Origin: a virus
IMG/VR virus record: IMGVR_UViG_3300010354_000002
Location: 19,162 to 83,161 of that record
Reading direction: 5' to 3' (one strand)
Length of the DNA: 64,000 nt
The position numbers were made by a program, and so were the translations under genes. The stretch's first letter is position 1. Each line of letters opens with the position of its first letter. The notes under the pieces were generated by a model. It had not been told where the DNA came from. It ran no database searches and saw nothing but the letters and a program-made list of their open reading frames with translations. Shown one piece after another: positions 13,461 to 24,605 of the stretch.

Positions 13461-13887
13461 TCCACTCGCCCGGGACCCATCCATCTTTGGCATAATGCTG
13501 GCCCTCAAGCACCCTGACATGCGTCAATCCAGACAGGAATCCGCCGTATCCCAGAATGCGCACACGGGTTCGGGATGGAGTCTCAAACATGCCGCCCTGA
13601 AGCCAGATGTTGAGTGCGCCTTCCTTGTCCTTGCGCCCCATGGCTCCAAGAAAGTCCGAGGCAATCTTCTCAGATGCAAACACTGTGACTGGAGCGGACT
13701 CAATTCCATTATGGAGGTTGACGACGTCACCGATCTTTGCCGACACATTCGTCACGGTCTGTGTATTTGTGCTGCCACTGCTTGGCAGGAATACGCTTGC
13801 CACACAACCACCGAACAGGACTACCGGGATGGCGCATACGATCAAGCAGCCTATCCCGGTAGCACCCAAACAATTCACGTCAGACAT
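13447..13887 (-). CDS. Membrane-anchored protein with SH3-like C-terminus (moron-like)
   Basis: GAAAGGAG RBS; N-terminal TM; VRVLEG...GWVP.EWI. Confidence 0.7.
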   Translation of the reverse strand: MSDVNCLGATGIGCLIVCAIPVVLFGGCVASVFLPSSGSTNTQTVTNVSAKIGDVVNLHNGIESAPVTVFASEKIASDFLGAMGRKDKEGALNIWLQGGMFETPSRTRVRILGYGGFLSGLTHVRVLEGQHYAKDGWVPGEWIKKP

Positions 13888-18970: not shown

Positions 18971-19614
18971 TACTCCCCTTTCGTCTGTAGATGGCGTACG
19001 GCCTTTTTCAGACGTGACTCGTATGCATCCTGATCGCTTCGGTCGTACTTGGGCTTGTTGGCGGCTTCCCTCTTTTCCCGTTCCCATTTATCATTTTCGG
19101 CTTTGATGATCCTGCACGCCTTGCGAGCCTCGTAATCAGACAGTTTCAACAGTGGCCGAAGCAGAATCTGATCAAACGGTCCGCCATGGTCCTTGCTTGG
19201 GAACTCTTCAAGCCATGCTGGTAGTTCCTCCGACCCTGCGGCCTGCCCAAGCATAGGCTGCGAAGGCGACTCAAGTTGCCTGTTGGCCGGTGGGGCCGGG
19301 GCGATCACATGGCGGCGAACATCTGCTTCGTTTCCCGCCATTACCTGCATCCTGTACACCTCGCGAACCTTGTTCTCAAGGGCGTCCCATTTGGGTCGAA
19401 ACTGGCTGTTTCGGATGAAAAACATTACCTGCCAACCCTCGGCATTCCATCCTGTGCCGTGCGAGTCCCTAAACCGAATCCCCCGGTCGCTGATCCGCTT
19501 GCACAGTTCGATCAATAGCCGCCATGCCTCTTCGTCCACATCGCACCATTCAGGGCCGGGAGCATGTTCCATTAGTTTGCGGATCTCCGTGCAGAATGCA
19601 CGGATGTCATTCAT
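18970..19614 (-). CDS. Hypothetical replication-region protein
   Basis: Coupled to both neighbours. Confidence 0.6.
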   Translation of the reverse strand: MNDIRAFCTEIRKLMEHAPGPEWCDVDEEAWRLLIELCKRISDRGIRFRDSHGTGWNAEGWQVMFFIRNSQFRPKWDALENKVREVYRMQVMAGNEADVRRHVIAPAPPANRQLESPSQPMLGQAAGSEELPAWLEEFPSKDHGGPFDQILLRPLLKLSDYEARKACRIIKAENDKWEREKREAANKPKYDRSDQDAYESRLKKAVRHLQTKGE

Positions 19615-19874
19615 TTCCCGCATATACGCTTTGACTTCTTGAACTCATCAACATCCAAAGCGGAAATGCAGTTGTTCGCCAACACGCCTAAATCGGCGCG
19701 AGTCAGTCGCATCTGTTGCGTTTGGCGTGCAAACGATTGCGCTTGCGGATTATGTGGCTCTTCCGCAACCCAGTGTTTGCCTAGTGCCTCCAAATCACGA
19801 ATTGCCACACATATGCTTGTGGTTATCTGGGAAACCTCCAACAACCTACCGCGTACGATATCTCTGTTCTTCAT
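19611..19874 (-). CDS. Hypothetical protein
   Basis: AGGAGG RBS and own promoter. Confidence 0.7.
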   Translation of the reverse strand: MKNRDIVRGRLLEVSQITTSICVAIRDLEALGKHWVAEEPHNPQAQSFARQTQQMRLTRADLGVLANNCISALDVDEFKKSKRICGK

Positions 19875-19931
19875 ATCAACCTCCTGCGCTATGGCGCAAA
19901 CAACACTATCGCAATACCACTATGTTGTCAA
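19875..19931 (-). promoter_or_regulatory. Promoter overlapping the stop codon of the replication gene
   Basis: TTGACA(19926-19931)-17-TAGTGT(19903-19908); TGCGC-CATA-GCGCA hairpin. Confidence 0.7.
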
Positions 19932-20896
19932 GCGTCTGGGCTGAACGAAAGCGCATGGATTACGCCGTCCTGTGCGTTGTCCACCCAGTCAATCCCGTCC
20001 AACAATCGTAGCCGTATGTCCCATTCAACGTGCGAGATGATCTTTCGCTGATCTTCGTCCGAAAGGACAAGGAAACTCGCCTGATCGCCTCGCAATGCGT
20101 TCATCCGGGCACGCTTGAGGCCGTTCGCTTCAGCCGTCGCAATCTTCTGTGCCTTGGTTGGTTCGGCTTGCTTGGCTTGCTCCTCAAGGAGCGCATCAAA
20201 ATGCCCAACGACGCTGCGGAACGTAACCATCGCTGGACTAGACCACCGCTGAAGGGCATTGCGGGTGGCAGCGGCAACTTCGGCTGGGGTCCGTCTCGCC
20301 TCAATCAGATAGTCCAGTTCGGCACGGAACTTGTCCAGTACGGACAGAGGGAACCTCTCGCCAACAATGTGGCGTGCTGTCGAGAATGCACGGTACAGGG
20401 CTTTTCGATCCGGGGTGTACTCGTGCTCGTCCTGATCGTTATCGGGCCTAGGTAAGCCTTCTAGTATAGTTTTACGTTGTAGATTACTATCTATTTCATT
20501 TCGTCTATTTATGTGCGCCAAATTTGACACTGGGGGGGCGTCAAATTTGCTCCCCCCCGTGTCGTTTTTGACGCTGGGGGCGAAGTCTGCTGGAGTGCAC
20601 ACGACGACCTCGTTTGTCCTTTGTGCGCCGTCCTCCGAAAAGCGATTTGAACGTTGGATCAGGCCAAGGGATTCCAGTTCGTCGTTGGCCCTGTCAAGGG
20701 TCCGGAGCGAGCAACCGACCATCTCCGACAGCCGCTTGCGACTCGGAAATACACAGTTCCCAGACCATGCATGCGACTTATAGGCAAGCCAAAGCAGACG
20801 TGCCGCCATTGAAATTTCAGCGTCGAACATGACACTGTTGTGTGCTACCGTCCACGGCTCTTGCGTGGACAAACGTACATTGGTAACGTCTTGCAT
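19928..20896 (-). CDS. Replication initiator (HTH_36, lambda O-like organisation)
   Basis: ARLLW...VFPSRKRLSEMVGCSLRTLDRA..EL...GLI.R...GAQRTN; internal repeats. Confidence 0.85.
   Translation of the reverse strand: MQDVTNVRLSTQEPWTVAHNSVMFDAEISMAARLLWLAYKSHAWSGNCVFPSRKRLSEMVGCSLRTLDRANDELESLGLIQRSNRFSEDGAQRTNEVVVCTPADFAPSVKNDTGGSKFDAPPVSNLAHINRRNEIDSNLQRKTILEGLPRPDNDQDEHEYTPDRKALYRAFSTARHIVGERFPLSVLDKFRAELDYLIEARRTPAEVAAATRNALQRWSSPAMVTFRSVVGHFDALLEEQAKQAEPTKAQKIATAEANGLKRARMNALRGDQASFLVLSDEDQRKIISHVEWDIRLRLLDGIDWVDNAQDGVIHALSFSPDA
20460..20585. repeat. Iteron-like repeats and AT-rich tract within initiator gene (candidate origin)
   Basis: TTTGAC(A/G)CTGGGGG twice, CAAATTTG palindrome twice, G/C homopolymer runs, adjacent AT-rich 20460-20510. 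Confidence 0.55.
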
Positions 20897-20909
20897 TCTG
20901 TCCTGCCAT

Positions 20910-21014
20910 AAAAATCAATCCCCTCCCAGCGGAAAGGATAAAACACTAGGAGGGGAGAACCACGGCGCGGAAAGGAGGAAACACGCCGTAGTATGTAGGC
21001 CGCCAACGGTGGCC
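20910..21014 (-). ncRNA. Structured RNA with two anti-SD-like loops
   Basis: 10-bp stem with loop UUUCCUCCUUUC; 13-bp stem with loop UUUUAUCCUUUC, then a U-rich tail; G-U pairs favour the - strand. Confidence 0.6.
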
Positions 21015-21024
21015 GATATTGTTA

Positions 21025-21297
21025 TCAGCGTTTCTTGGCTGCTGGACTGGCAACCGCAACAGGCTCAGGGCGGGGATCAAGGTACACCACGTGTGCGTTC
21101 GTCCAGTCGCCGTCAGGCATCCTCCACGGCGTAGTGTCTGCCGTCAGAGCCTTCCAGCAGTCCTCCGAGGCACGAAACTCATCGGACAAAAAAGCGCAGA
21201 CCGAGAGCGATTGACTCTGCAGCGCTTTATAGGACTCGCAAAGTTCCTCCACCGACTTCACGTCATTCAGATGGACGTTGAAACGTCGTTCAATCAT
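21025..21297 (-). CDS. Hypothetical protein
   Basis: GGAGG RBS. Confidence 0.65.
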   Translation of the reverse strand: MIERRFNVHLNDVKSVEELCESYKALQSQSLSVCAFLSDEFRASEDCWKALTADTTPWRMPDGDWTNAHVVYLDPRPEPVAVASPAAKKR

Positions 21298-21421
21298 GCC
21301 AATCCTCCATATCGGGATGATCCCGTTGTTCCCACCAGCCAGCCACCCTGATCACACATGCGATCAGGATGGCCAGCGCAACGATTGGTACGGCGATAAC
21401 TGCCATGGCTAAGTTATACAT
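21290..21421 (-). CDS. Small TM protein (not in ORF track)
   Basis: MYNLAMAVIAVPIVALAILIACVIRVAG..., 43 aa, coupled on both sides. Confidence 0.55.
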   Translation of the reverse strand: MYNLAMAVIAVPIVALAILIACVIRVAGWWEQRDHPDMEDWHD

Positions 21422-21983
21422 CCTTATCCAGAGTTTTGATTTTGGCTATGGTATAGCCGTCTTCGATCACGAAGCCGCTTGGGCAACGCCCCTCGGCAAT
21501 CCATTCCTTTGTCGGCAATTGGCTGATCAGAACCTTCTTGGTAACCTTTACAGCCTCGGGCACGTTTTGCTCTGCCCAAGCAATCGCATCTCCCTCGGCG
21601 TCGTTGATGGCAACGCTCTGCCCTCGCGTGACAAACGAGATCGTGCCGAACGGGGTTTTGTGCGTCTTGGATGCGTATGAGCCATCGGCCTTTCGGGGCA
21701 ACAGGCTATCGGCGACGTGCTTGGCCTGTTGCTCGTAACGCTCAAGCCACCAATCACGTTTCCGCTCGCGTTCAACAATGATCTTCTCCGCATTTGCGAT
21801 AATCGTTTGCAACTCGGCTTTTGCCGCCGCCACATCCGACTCATACCGCAACAGGCGACGCATGAAAACAAGCAAATCATCTTCGGTCTGAACGCCGGTG
21901 GCGTCCAATGCGCCGTCTACTGGCCCAGCGTACTCGCCGGTCTCCTCGTCCCACAAATCCTCTCCAATCCGTACGATTCCCAT
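21414..21983 (-). CDS. Mu Gam / siphovirus gp157-like nuclease inhibitor
   Basis: DEETGE N-terminus, coiled coil, KTHKTPFGTISF. Confidence 0.75.
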   Translation of the reverse strand: MGIVRIGEDLWDEETGEYAGPVDGALDATGVQTEDDLLVFMRRLLRYESDVAAAKAELQTIIANAEKIIVERERKRDWWLERYEQQAKHVADSLLPRKADGSYASKTHKTPFGTISFVTRGQSVAINDAEGDAIAWAEQNVPEAVKVTKKVLISQLPTKEWIAEGRCPSGFVIEDGYTIAKIKTLDKDV

Positions 21984-21984
21984 C

Positions 21985-22551
21985 TTATTTCCCTTCCTTC
22001 GTCAGTTTTACAATCAGATCCTGAAGTGTCTGTGCATTCACCGGGCGGTCTTTCAGCATCATCTTGACCACCTTGTTCTGCTCCGCATGATCATCCGCTT
22101 TTGCAAGGCCCTGCTCCACAATCAGCGTGCGAACTGCCTGAGCCAACCGTTGAACATCTTCCTTCTTGTCCGGCTCGGCAGCCCGTGTCCGTTGCACCGG
22201 CGCATCTGCCAATCGGTCTCGCTCGTCCAGTTCGTCTGCCATGAACTGTGTCCCGTATCCCGCAATCCCTAGTGCTCGTCCAATGGCACCGGTCTCGCAT
22301 TTCTCCAAAAAGTCGGGGAAGTCCTTGCGCGATTCCTGCTTGGTGCCAGTGGCTAAAAGGTTGCCGTCGGCGTCGTAGACCGATGCGCGGCAGACGGCAA
22401 ATCCGCCCTCTATGTCAATCTGAAGAAAATCAGATTCAATCCGTCCCCCGGGGTGTGCATTTCGGAACCACACCAACCTGAACGCTACGGGCAGATAATC
22501 CTTGCCCTTGAGTTTCATAACTCCAACCTTGACGCTATCTGGTATCTGCAT
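21985..22551 (-). CDS. Rad52/Sak-like ssDNA annealing recombinase
   Basis: KGKDYLPV..RL.WFR...ATG...EKCETGAIGRAL..AGYG; start ATG 22551 after CAGGAG. Confidence 0.8.
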   Translation of the reverse strand: MQIPDSVKVGVMKLKGKDYLPVAFRLVWFRNAHPGGRIESDFLQIDIEGGFAVCRASVYDADGNLLATGTKQESRKDFPDFLEKCETGAIGRALGIAGYGTQFMADELDERDRLADAPVQRTRAAEPDKKEDVQRLAQAVRTLIVEQGLAKADDHAEQNKVVKMMLKDRPVNAQTLQDLIVKLTKEGK

Positions 22552-23734: not shown

Positions 23735-23802
23735 TGTCTTTCTCCTTGCGGGGTATTCTGCCCCGACACCAAGATGATACCGGGGCTGTACGGGGTTGTC
23801 AA
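23735..23802 (-). promoter_or_regulatory. Early promoter with GTGTC...AGAA leader
   Basis: TTGACA(23797-23802)-17-TATCAT(23774-23779). Confidence 0.85.
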
Positions 23803-24445: not shown

Positions 24446-24605
24446 CGTAATTCTCCTTTGCAAGGGCGTTCTGCCCTGACACGACCATGTTACTACCAGT
24501 TCCCGGCGTTGTCAAGCCCAAAGAAAAAAAAGATTGGGCCTTGACAACATGGGCAGGCGGTTGTATCATTCAGCCGTCCCCGCACTACGGGGCAAGGAGA
24601 ACCCA
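24446..24605. promoter_or_regulatory. Back-to-back divergent early promoters
   Basis: Leftward TTGACA(24510-24515)-17-TAACAT; rightward TTGACA(24541-24546)-17-TATCAT; shared central A-tract. Confidence 0.9.

What the first reader, a model, noticed from the sequence alone, without database searches (positions are those of the whole stretch)
20910..21014. Double-hairpin RNA displaying 16S anti-Shine-Dalgarno mimics, upstream of the replication initiator
Seen on the - strand: stem CUACGGCGUG/CGCGCCGUGG with loop UUUCCUCCUUUC, then stem UCCCCUCCUAGUG/CGCUGGGAGGGGA with loop UUUUAUCCUUUC, then UUGAUUUUU. Both loops are 12 nt and end UCCUUUC. Four G-U pairs would be C-A mismatches on the other strand. 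Known: CCUCCUUUC equals the 16S 3' tail of many bacteria, and C-rich-loop sRNAs block RBSs. The loops complement phage RBSs such as GAAAGGAG (gene 13887) and GAAAGGAU (gene 38704). Inference: a trans-acting SD-sequestering RNA silencing host or early mRNAs while sparing leaderless late mRNAs, and/or an attenuator for the initiator. If transcribed from +, the loops would be CsrA-type GGA sites.
Basis: partly seen in the sequence, partly recalled or inferred. Interest (0 to 1): 0.75.

Follow-up and report, generated by a model that had tools for sequence, protein, structure and literature searches.

The report
Phage RNA hairpins mimicking ribosome tail
Just before its DNA-replication starter gene, an uncultured freshwater phage keeps a folded stretch of messenger RNA whose two hairpin tips copy the ribosome's mRNA-docking sequence; it very probably stops or throttles transcription there and may also mask ribosome-binding sites, but nobody has tested this.

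Summary
On the - strand, between a 90-aa gene and a RepA/O-like initiator gene, three hairpins fold: H0 at 21014-20998, H1 at 20992-20959 and H2 at 20956-20919. H2 is followed by UUGAUUUUU (-50.7 kcal/mol, z -4.5).

One distant relative, metagenome contig L002 (initiator 58% identical), has the same layout with different stems. In H1, 3 of 11 pairs are compensatory and none is broken. L002 keeps the loop core YCCUUUC and the U-tract. All 7 G-U pairs lie on the sense strand.

TCCTTTCC occurs twice in the 83-kb genome, once in each loop.

Best reading:
- It is a sense-strand intercistronic RNA.
- H2 is an intrinsic terminator or attenuator that gates the initiator.
- The loops are anti-Shine-Dalgarno-like seeds, as in the cuckoo/CcsR sRNAs.

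Limits:
- The trans-silencing idea is untested, and loop-RBS complementarity is no better than for shuffled loops.
- The claim that late mRNAs are leaderless is not supported.
- No Rfam family matches.
- Only two sequences and one strain variant support the element, and there are no strand-specific RNA data.

This scan has noted similar phage anti-SD hairpin RNAs on other DNA.

The parts
20998..21014 (-). H0, a small hairpin (7 positions, 3-nt loop) 10 nt after the stop codon of the 90-aa gene. Its sequence is nearly conserved in L002 (GCCACCGUYGGYGGC). On the + strand it reads as a terminator-like hairpin.
   Evidence: Fold. L002 copy. A.C mismatch on the sense strand and G.U on the + strand in the window; perfect in L002. 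+ strand terminator-like hit.
20959..20992 (-). H1, an 11-bp stem (20992-20982 with 20969-20959) and a 12-nt loop UUUCCUCCUUUC (20981-20970).
   Evidence: Against L002, of 11 pairs, 3 changed on both sides, 2 on one side and 0 are broken. The strain variant turns U.G into U-A at 20968.
20919..20956 (-). H2, a 13-bp G+C-rich stem (20956-20944 with 20931-20919) and a 12-nt loop UUUUAUCCUUUC (20943-20932). Its 3' arm, GGGAGGGGA, looks like an SD.
   Evidence: L002 has an 11-bp stem with loop UCUCCCUUUC. The 7 basal pairs are kept.
20910..20918 (-). U-rich tract UUGAUUUUU directly after H2. With H2 it forms an intrinsic-terminator-like site.
   Evidence: Conserved as UUGAUUUUG in L002. The terminator scan lists the site.
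20817..20909 (-). AUG 9 nt after H2 opens a 30-codon frame that is out of frame with the initiator. In L002 an AUG 10 nt after H2 opens a 6-codon frame whose UGA overlaps the initiator AUG. Significance is uncertain.
   Evidence: Read.
19928..20896 (-). Replication initiator gene (322 aa) with a weak SD (AGGA).
   Evidence: Pfam HTH_36 at 1.1e-07 and a weak RP-C hit. PHROG 270 'replication initiation protein' at 1.5e-13. RBS.
21025..21297 (-). Upstream 90-aa gene of unknown function. The element is its 3' untranslated tail.
   Evidence: No Pfam or PHROG family. The Atlas model is poor.
20809..20836 (+). Weak antisense promoter-like site (TTGAAA-16-GACACT) inside the first codons of the initiator gene. 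The homologous site in L002 is TTGACA-16-TACACT. It could drive an antisense RNA that ends at H0.
   Evidence: It was not reported by the stricter scan.

Best explanation
The element is a structured piece of the leftward early mRNA, in the same sense as the genes. It lies between a 90-aa gene and the replication-initiator gene.

Shown: three hairpins are conserved by compensatory change.

Inferred step 1 (about 0.65): H2 plus UUGAUUUUU acts as an intrinsic terminator or attenuator.
- Most early transcripts would then end here with a stable, hairpin-protected 3' tail.
- Only read-through transcripts would reach the initiator and the roughly 4 kb of genes behind it, for which no consensus promoter was found.

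Inferred step 2 (about 0.4): the two 10-15-nt loops expose the conserved pyrimidine motif YCCUUUC (CCUCCUUUC in loop 1), a copy of the 16S rRNA 3' tail.
- The loops would pair with purine-rich ribosome-binding sites of the GAAAGG(A/G) or GGAG type, on the phage's own early messages or on host messages, and damp their translation.
- This is how the cuckoo/CcsR sRNAs are thought to work. Those are also multi-hairpin RNAs cut from the 3' UTR of a small gene.
For: Structure:
- Window sense strand: z -4.5, 0 of 200 shuffles as good. L002 sense strand: z -4.85, 0 of 200.
- L002 has the same three-hairpin layout, although its initiator is only 58% identical.
- In H1, 3 of 11 pairs are double compensatory, 2 are single changes and 0 are broken. 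The 7 basal pairs of H2 are kept.
- All 7 G-U pairs (4 in the window, 3 in L002) are on the sense strand, as read.
- The sense strand is more stable than the antisense strand in both: -50.7 vs -41.6, and -53.7 vs -47.7 kcal/mol.

Constraint:
- Element identity is 71% (77 of 108 columns). The end of the upstream gene is 50% and the whole initiator gene 64%.
- A strain variant has 2 changes in 20850-21000 but 16 in 21028-21213. One of the 2 changes turns a U.G pair into U-A.

Loops:
- TCCTTTCC occurs only in the two loops in 83 kb.
- The core CCUUUC is present in all four loops of the two relatives.
- The phage's other strong terminator-like hairpins have 4-nt loops, so the large loops are not this phage's usual terminator style.

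Terminator:
- The stem is G+C-rich and the U-tract is conserved.
- No sigma-70-like site at 9 of 12 or better lies on the - strand between 20900 and 16853.

SD use:
- The phage genes use SDs: median duplex with an anti-SD motif is -7.4 against -2.8 kcal/mol for internal control positions.
- 8-9-nt perfect complements of the loops lie at RBS positions of genes at 13887, 54012-region, 38704 and 22984.
- The dUTPase RBS downstream in the same operon is of GAAAGG type in both phages.

Precedent: cuckoo RNAs have 2-4 adjacent hairpins, the same aSD-like loop motif, variable stems, and co-transcription with a small upstream gene (PMC4615179 and PMC8034643, passages read).
Against: - No transcript ends are known. 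Only contigs could be laid. One 151-nt contig of an RNA library spans H1 and H2 and runs 60 nt into the initiator gene, which shows read-through at most, and it may be DNA carry-over.
- Complements of the loops at RBS-like positions (8 sites for loop 1, 3 for loop 2, at k=8) are within the range of shuffled loops: mean 2.7, maximum 15, and 59% of shuffles give at least 2. The pairing is therefore generic.
- The excess of GAAAGG RBSs on - strand genes is weak: p 0.33 on my gene calls and 0.03 on sites.
- Loops of 10-15 nt are larger than in typical intrinsic terminators.
- The strain variant changes the last C of loop 1 to U.
- Support rests on two sequences plus one close variant.
- No Rfam family matches.
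- The host, and therefore its 16S tail, is unknown.
Confidence: 0.4

Rival explanations
1. It is only a terminator or attenuator and mRNA 3'-end stabiliser. The hairpins stop transcription before the initiator, or are overridden by a phage antiterminator as at lambda nutR-tR1. The conserved loops would be binding sites for a protein (an antiterminator, a nuclease guard, or the unknown 90-aa product), not pairing seeds.
For: - Conserved U-tract and G+C-rich H2.
- No consensus promoter for the next 4 kb.
- The two apical modules share 16 of 18 nt (GUGUUU..UCCUUUCCGC), as expected for two sites of one binding factor (D1).
- Loop-RBS complementarity is not above shuffled loops.
Against: - No RNA-binding or antiterminator protein was recognised among the 10 neighbouring ORFs scanned or the 7 scanned.
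- This reading does not explain why the motif is a copy of the anti-SD.
- The phage's other terminator-like hairpins do without large loops.
Confidence: 0.25
2. It is the target (CopT-like leader) of an antisense RNA that controls initiator synthesis, as in plasmid R1 or pT181. A + strand RNA would start inside the first codons of the initiator gene, cross H2 and H1, and end at H0. It would kiss the sense loops and block read-through or translation.
For: - Promoter-like sites lie at homologous codons on the antisense strand: TTGACA-16-TACACT in L002 (10 of 12) and TTGAAA-16-GACACT in the window (8 of 12).
- H0 reads as a terminator-like hairpin on the + strand, with G.U there and A.C on the sense strand.
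- The antisense strand of L002 still folds at z -3.28.
- The AUG after H2, and the L002 mini-ORF that overlaps the initiator AUG, recall leader-peptide coupling.
Against: - All 7 G-U pairs of H1 and H2 become C-A mismatches on the antisense strand, and the window antisense fold reaches only z -2.2.
- The promoter-like motif lies in invariant codons (AHNSVMFD..SM), so coding constraint alone can explain its conservation.
- The window site falls below the scan threshold.
- The mini-ORF arrangement is not conserved between the two phages.
- There is no YUNR loop motif (read).
Confidence: 0.12
3. It is a translational enhancer or standby site. The two pyrimidine-rich loops recruit the 30S subunit through ribosomal protein S1 to the weak-SD initiator start just downstream.
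For: - The initiator has one of the weakest SDs in the operon: -5.5 kcal/mol against a median of -7.4. L002 has only GAGAA.
- The loops are single-stranded, rich in U and C, and lie 25-90 nt upstream.
Against: - There is no direct evidence.
- From general knowledge, S1 prefers A/U-rich tracts.
- This reading does not explain the conserved U-tract.
- It does not explain why the motif matches the anti-SD.
Confidence: 0.06
4. It is a DNA-level element: two 18-bp direct repeats or palindromes upstream of the initiator gene that serve as iterons or operators bound by the initiator. A further option is a + strand RNA whose GGA loops sponge CsrA.
For: - Direct repeat GCGGAAAGGA[T/G][A/G]AAACAC occurs twice, 38 bp apart.
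- It lies next to an initiator gene.
- On the + strand the loops read GGAAAGGA.
Against: - Stem sequences differ between relatives while staying complementary, and G-U pairs are on one strand only. This is the signature of RNA, not of a protein-bound palindrome.
- There are only two repeat copies.
- A much better origin candidate lies inside the initiator gene, and its DNA is nearly identical in both phages.
- The + strand folds worse.
- No CsrB/Rsm family match was found.
Confidence: 0.05

Closest known systems
Cuckoo / CcsR1-4 (RSs0680, alpha-r14) sRNAs of Alphaproteobacteria (PMC4615179 and PMC8034643; passages read)
   Same: - Two or more adjacent hairpins of similar size.
- Every loop carries the same pyrimidine, anti-SD-like motif.
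- Stems vary through compensatory changes, so only the loop motif is conserved.
- The RNA is co-transcribed with, and lies in the 3' UTR of, a small upstream gene.
- A terminator-like hairpin sits at the end.
   Different: - The motif is YCCUUUC (CCUCCUUUC in one loop), not CCUCCUCCC.
- The upstream protein has no DUF1127 domain.
- It is encoded by a phage, not a bacterial chromosome.
- The last motif-bearing hairpin is itself the terminator-like hairpin and sits 22 nt before an essential replication gene.
- No Rfam match was found in 19500-22500 at E up to 10.
Betaproteobacterial 'toxic small RNAs' (Rfam RF02278). They are named in PMC4603805, passage read; their two-hairpin, anti-SD-like loop design is recalled, not read.
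   Same: Short RNAs with a terminator. As I recall them, they have hairpin loops with a pyrimidine motif that could mask RBSs.
   Different: No match to RF02278. They are chromosomal and stand-alone genes, and their function is likewise unknown.
Antisense control of plasmid initiators: R1 CopA/CopT with the tap leader peptide, and pT181/pIP501 attenuation (recalled from general knowledge; the review PMC4152353 was seen only as a search listing)
   Same: Two stem-loops in the leader directly upstream of a rep gene, a terminator-like hairpin before the rep start, a short ORF next to the rep start, and a possible countertranscript promoter.
   Different: - The sense hairpins are optimised on one strand only (G-U pairs).
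- No alternative antiterminator fold was found.
- The antisense promoter is weak and lies in invariant codons.
- The mini-ORF is not conserved.
Lambda nutR-tR1 checkpoint before cII-O-P (recalled from general knowledge)
   Same: An RNA hairpin signal plus a terminator placed between early genes and the replication genes, so that replication genes depend on read-through.
   Different: - There is no boxA/boxB-like sequence.
- No N-like protein was recognised.
- tR1 is Rho-dependent, whereas H2 looks intrinsic.
Intrinsic (Rho-independent) terminators
   Same: A G+C-rich stem of 11-13 bp directly followed by a U-rich tract. Both features are conserved in the two relatives.
   Different: The loops are 10-12 nt and carry a conserved motif. 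The phage's other terminator-like hairpins have 4-nt loops.

Membership tests
Cuckoo / CcsR RNA family | 2 to 4 adjacent hairpins of similar size | tested here: met
   H1 (11 bp, 12-nt loop) and H2 (13 bp, 12-nt loop) are 2 nt apart. The same holds in L002.
Cuckoo / CcsR RNA family | Each hairpin loop carries CCUCCUCCC (definition from PMC4615179) | tested here: not met
   The loops are UUUCCUCCUUUC and UUUUAUCCUUUC. In L002 they are GCUUUGCUCCUUUCA and UCUCCCUUUC. The shared core is CCUUUC.
Cuckoo / CcsR RNA family | Stems vary by compensatory mutation and only the loop motif is conserved | tested here: met
   of 11 H1 pairs, 3 changed on both sides, 2 on one side and 0 are broken (2 sequences only).
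Cuckoo / CcsR RNA family | Match to the Rfam covariance models of the family | tested here: not met
   cmscan of 19500-22500 at E up to 10 gave 5 weak matches, none in 20900-21020 and none to an sRNA of this kind.
Cuckoo / CcsR RNA family | Linked to a DUF1127 protein gene (CIN1 locus) | tested here: not met
   The upstream 90-aa protein has no Pfam family at E up to 0.01.
Intrinsic terminator | G+C-rich stem followed at once by a U-rich tract | tested here: met
   13-bp stem followed by UUGAUUUUU. The site is listed by the scan and conserved in L002.
Intrinsic terminator | Short loop (3-8 nt in the scan used) | tested here: not met
   The loop is 12 nt, and 10 nt in L002. The scan found the site only through an alternative register with a 3-4-nt loop.
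Intrinsic terminator | Transcripts end in the U-tract | not testable with these tools
   Only contigs of runs were available, and contigs cannot show RNA ends.
Antisense-RNA control of rep (R1 CopA/CopT type) | Countertranscript promoter and terminator within the leader | tested here: inconclusive
   Promoter-like sites score 8 of 12 in the window and 10 of 12 in L002, at homologous codons. H0 is terminator-like on the + strand. There are no RNA data.
Antisense-RNA control of rep (R1 CopA/CopT type) | Leader peptide translationally coupled to rep | tested here: inconclusive
   In L002 a 6-codon ORF ends in AUGA at the rep start. In the window the ORF is 30 codons, out of frame, and ends inside rep.
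CsrB/RsmZ-type CsrA sponge (+ strand reading) | GGA motifs in the loops of stable hairpins on the transcribed strand | tested here: inconclusive
   GGA is present in both + strand loops. However, the + strand stems carry C-A mismatches, the fold is only z -2.2, and no Rfam match was found.
P1/P7 C4 antisense RNA (RF01695) | Match to the Rfam model | tested here: not met
   No match.

The most novel reading that the evidence does not exclude
The phage makes a stable 3'-end RNA that imitates the 3' tail of 16S rRNA. Every early transcript stopped at H2 would leave one copy, so the RNA builds up with early transcription and titrates GAAAGG/GGAG ribosome-binding sites of early or host messages. 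The same hairpin meters how many polymerases reach the replication initiator. One element would then be both the timer of early translation and the gate of DNA replication. Together with the similar elements this scan noted in other phages, it would define a widespread, undescribed class of phage anti-Shine-Dalgarno RNAs.
Probability: 0.25. Interest if true: 0.75.

Novelty: new variant of a known kind. Interest (0 to 1): 0.5.

Why it matters
Few trans-acting RNAs are known from lytic phages. In two full-text searches the top listings showed no paper describing a phage RNA that displays anti-Shine-Dalgarno loops.

If the reading is right, this element gives a compact and directly testable case: about 105 nt, with two loops to mutate. 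It would show how a phage couples the end of early gene expression to the start of replication by RNA alone. It would also extend the cuckoo-type design from alphaproteobacterial stress sRNAs to viruses.

If only the terminator part is right, it is an ordinary regulatory checkpoint with an unusual, conserved loop signature that marks an unknown binding partner.

Tried and rejected
More relatives were sought, mostly without result.
- The initiator protein or its alignment A1 was scanned against viral contigs, genome contigs and metagenome contigs. Only the last gave a locus, L002.
- P0008 against viral contigs found nothing.
- tblastn and blastn against phages and plasmids gave only distant initiators at 23-32% identity, or nothing.
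- Three DNA pattern scans of viral contigs were run. One found nothing. One hit, L003, lies in a portal-like ORF with no hairpins. One hit, L031, has no hairpins. I rejected both hits as chance.
- 27 IMG/VR loci with a Gam-like homologue have no initiator homologue, no 90-aa homologue (tblastn) and no such hairpins.
- Covariance model R1 found only its own training sequences in 363,348 bases and in the whole genome. Its weak hit in L004 (E 0.065) is unrelated on reading.
- The profile search found only 2 clusters at E up to 1e-30. Their DNA could not be fetched.

Cis pairing was considered and dropped. The loops have no conserved partner near the initiator RBS. A long-range H0 pairing appears in the window fold but is absent from L002.

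No sense promoter for a stand-alone sRNA was found. Nothing scores 8 of 12 or better upstream of H0 in either sequence.

Uncovered stretches and short shares in the sequencing runs are not used as evidence of absence or of habitat.

The 90-aa protein gave nothing useful in Pfam, PHROGs or the Atlas.

Supplements of the papers cited were not opened, so target lists of cuckoo RNAs there could bear on the comparison.
Full report
WHAT IS THERE

The window is part of a complete 83,161-bp virus record with direct terminal repeats. Its DNA is found mostly in river and freshwater metagenome runs (only four runs were laid).

Around 21,000 all plausible genes are on the - strand:
- a Mu Gam-like gene (21983-21414);
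- a 90-aa gene of unknown function (21297-21025);
- a 322-aa gene (20896-19928), which matches HTH_36 (1.1e-07), weakly RepC, and PHROG 270 'replication initiation protein' (1.5e-13).

Consensus sigma-70-like sites (TTGACA-17-TATCAT and the like) lie at about 23,800 and 24,500. On the - strand there is none between 20,900 and 16,853. The scan as a whole is not enriched over shuffles (11 found against 9.8 expected), so these sites are leads only.

The 128 nt between the 90-aa gene and the initiator gene fold, on the - strand, into three hairpins:
- H0, 21014-20998;
- H1, 20992-20959, 11 bp, loop UUUCCUCCUUUC;
- H2, 20956-20919, 13 bp, loop UUUUAUCCUUUC.

H2 is followed by UUGAUUUUU, an out-of-frame AUG at 20909, and the initiator AUG at 20896 behind a weak AGGA.

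IS IT MORE THAN CHANCE?

- The - strand folds at -50.7 kcal/mol (z -4.50; 0 of 200 shuffles as good). The + strand folds at -41.6 (z -2.21; 6 of 200).
- TCCTTTCC occurs twice in the whole genome on both strands, and both copies are the loops.
- A search for hairpins with at least 9 bp and an 8-16-nt loop of at least 80% pyrimidine found 5 loci in the genome. Only H1 and H2 exceed 9 bp.
- The strongest other terminator-like hairpins of this phage have 4-nt loops: 3772, 38254, 8107 and 37441 in window coordinates. The large loops are therefore a special feature.
- Rfam has no match here.

RELATIVES

The initiator family is rare.
- There are 4 homologues among 5.8 billion clusters, and 2 clusters at E up to 1e-30 among 1.84 billion representatives.
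- One homologue could be read on metagenome contig L002 (58% identity over the best segment).

L002 has the same order: end of a weakly similar upstream gene, then H0, H1, H2, the U-tract and the initiator.
- H0 is almost unchanged in sequence.
- H1 has 12 bp and loop GCUUUGCUCCUUUCA.
- H2 has 11 bp and loop UCUCCCUUUC, followed by UUGAUUUUG.

In the alignment, the 11 shared H1 pairs comprise 3 changed on both sides, 2 changed on one side, 6 unchanged and 0 broken. The 7 basal H2 pairs are kept. The upper part of H2 differs in length and MAFFT misaligns it, but it folds in each sequence on its own.

Wobble pairs are informative. The window has 4 and L002 has 3, all G-U on the sense strand, so all would be C-A on the other strand (read). 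L002 also folds better in sense (-53.7, z -4.85) than in antisense (-47.7, z -3.28).

The element is 71% identical between the two phages (77 of 108 columns). That equals the best-conserved 300 nt of the initiator gene and exceeds the whole gene (64%) and the end of the upstream gene (50%).

A close strain adds a little.
- A 151-nt contig from an RNA library (X21) covers 20850-21000 with 2 differences. The next contig has 16 differences in 21028-21213.
- The same 2 differences are in a DNA run (X2).
- One difference (20968) turns the U.G pair next to the H1 loop into U-A. The other (20970) changes the last loop base from C to U.
- These are contigs. They cannot show strand, ends or level, and DNA may be present in an RNA library. 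The most this says is that the stretch across H2 may be transcribed as one piece.

WHAT IT IS NOT

It is not a DNA-level origin element.
- Stems that change while staying complementary, with one-strand wobble pairs, are the signature of RNA.
- A far better origin candidate lies inside the initiator gene at 20515-20580. It has repeats and a perfect 10-nt inverted repeat (CAAATTTGAC/GTCAAATTTG) followed by A+T-rich DNA.
- That DNA is almost identical in L002, although the genes are 64% identical overall. It encodes the GGSKFDAPPVSNL island of the protein alignment.

It is unlikely to be a + strand CsrA sponge, because that strand folds worse.

No conserved cis partner for the loops was found near the initiator RBS. 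No promoter for a separate sRNA gene lies upstream of H0.

HOW IT MOST LIKELY WORKS

Shown: it is a conserved sense-strand RNA structure in the intercistronic space.

Inferred, step 1. H2 with its conserved U-tract is an intrinsic terminator or attenuator. Since no consensus promoter follows for about 4 kb, the initiator, dUTPase and neighbouring genes would depend on read-through. The element would thus gate the replication genes and leave early transcripts with a hairpin-protected tail. I put this at about 0.65.

Inferred, step 2. The loops are recognition sites.
- Their shared core YCCUUUC, and CCUCCUUUC in loop 1, copy the anti-SD. CCUCCUUUC/GAAAGGAGG is one of the documented anti-SD/SD types (PMC10783764, Table 1, passage read).
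- The phage uses SDs. In my rough call of 81 genes, the median duplex with an anti-SD motif is -7.4 against -2.8 kcal/mol for internal positions. Start choice was biased towards SDs.
- Exact 8-9-nt complements of the loops sit at RBS positions before genes at 13887, about 53,995, 38704 and 22984.
- GAAAGG lies before a start codon at 8 of 13 - strand sites but at 1 of 10 + strand sites.
- The dUTPase RBS, downstream in the same operon, is GAAAGG-type in both phages.
- These matches are no better than those of shuffled pyrimidine loops, and the strand bias is weak (p 0.33 by genes, 0.03 by sites).

The pairing is plausible but not demonstrated. I put it at about 0.4.

The idea that late messages are leaderless is not supported. 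25 of 44 + strand genes have a GGAG/GAGG/AGGA at -20..-3.

RIVALS

(a) The loops bind a protein, and the element is only a checkpoint or stabiliser. The two apical modules share 16 of 18 nt.

(b) The element is the target of an antisense RNA.
- Promoter-like sites lie at homologous codons of the initiator gene, 10 of 12 in L002 and 8 of 12 in the window.
- H0 looks like a + strand terminator.
- An AUG follows H2 by 9-10 nt in both. In L002 it opens a 6-codon ORF that overlaps the initiator AUG.
- Against this, the wobble pairs disfavour a folded antisense RNA, and the promoter motif lies in invariant codons.

(c) It is an S1 or standby enhancer for the weak initiator start.

(d) It is a DNA or CsrA element, as discussed above.

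COMPARISON WITH WHAT IS KNOWN

The nearest design is the cuckoo/CcsR family.
- It has 2-4 adjacent hairpins, each loop carrying CCUCCUCCC, with stems full of compensatory changes.
- It is co-transcribed with a small upstream gene and processed from its 3' UTR (PMC4615179 and PMC8034643, passages read).

The architecture and the logic match. The defining motif, the DUF1127 partner and the Rfam models do not. It therefore works like a cuckoo RNA at best and is not a member of that family.

Plasmid antisense control of rep genes and the lambda nutR-tR1 checkpoint are functional analogies taken from general knowledge.

Two full-text searches listed no paper on a phage RNA with anti-SD loops. That holds only for the library searched and the listings shown.

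This scan has noted similar phage hairpin RNAs with anti-SD loops on other genomes, and follow-up agents also rated them confirmed as structures but untested in function. Those notes gave me the idea of testing for a private RBS tag. Here that test was inconclusive.

VERDICT

The RNA structure is real and conserved. It is a new variant of a known kind. Interest is moderate, and is limited by the thin comparative base (two sequences plus a strain variant) and the lack of transcript data.

Noticed in passing
window 20515-20580 (inside the initiator gene); L002 687-748: A cluster of repeats: TTTGACRCTGGGGG twice, GCGYCAAATTTG twice, and a perfect 10-nt inverted repeat CAAATTTGAC/GTCAAATTTG, followed by A+T-rich DNA. 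The DNA is almost identical in L002, although the genes are 64% identical overall. It encodes the conserved GGSKFDAPPVSNL island. This is a candidate replication origin inside the initiator gene, as in lambda O.
   Followed up: partly
window 21336-21379, - strand: A perfect 18-bp hairpin with a 4-nt loop (-33.6 kcal/mol) lies between the Gam-like gene and the 90-aa gene, with no U-tract. It is the second strongest local fold in the genome and may be a processing or stability site.
   Followed up: no
window 20809-20836 (+); L002 452-425 (antisense): Sigma-70-like sites on the antisense strand lie at the same codons of the initiator gene in both phages: TTGAAA-16-GACACT and TTGACA-16-TACACT. They could drive an antisense RNA across the initiator start and the hairpins.
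   Followed up: partly
window 20907-20909; L002 354-374: An AUG follows H2 by 9-10 nt in both phages. In L002 it opens a 6-codon ORF whose UGA overlaps the initiator AUG (AUGA). In the window the ORF is 30 codons and out of frame.
   Followed up: partly
window, - strand sites 61940, 54012, 38718, 38455, 37829, 22998, 18982, 13902; L002 2114: GAAAGG-type ribosome-binding sites are found almost only before - strand (non-structural) genes: 8 of 13 - strand sites against 1 of 10 + strand sites. The dUTPase RBS is of this type in both phages.
   Followed up: partly
L003 9656-9688 (+), an unrelated IMG/VR contig fetched by a chance pattern hit: A 12-bp hairpin GGAUCACCAUCG / CGAUGGUGAUCU with loop UCCCUCCUU, followed by CUUUUGUG. 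It is another terminator-like hairpin with an anti-SD-like loop, in a different phage.
   Followed up: no
window 23774-23802 (-), 24487-24515 (-), 24541-24569 (+): Near-consensus divergent promoter-like sites (TTGACA-17-TATCAT or TAACAT) probably mark the early control region from which the leftward operon containing the element is read.
   Followed up: no
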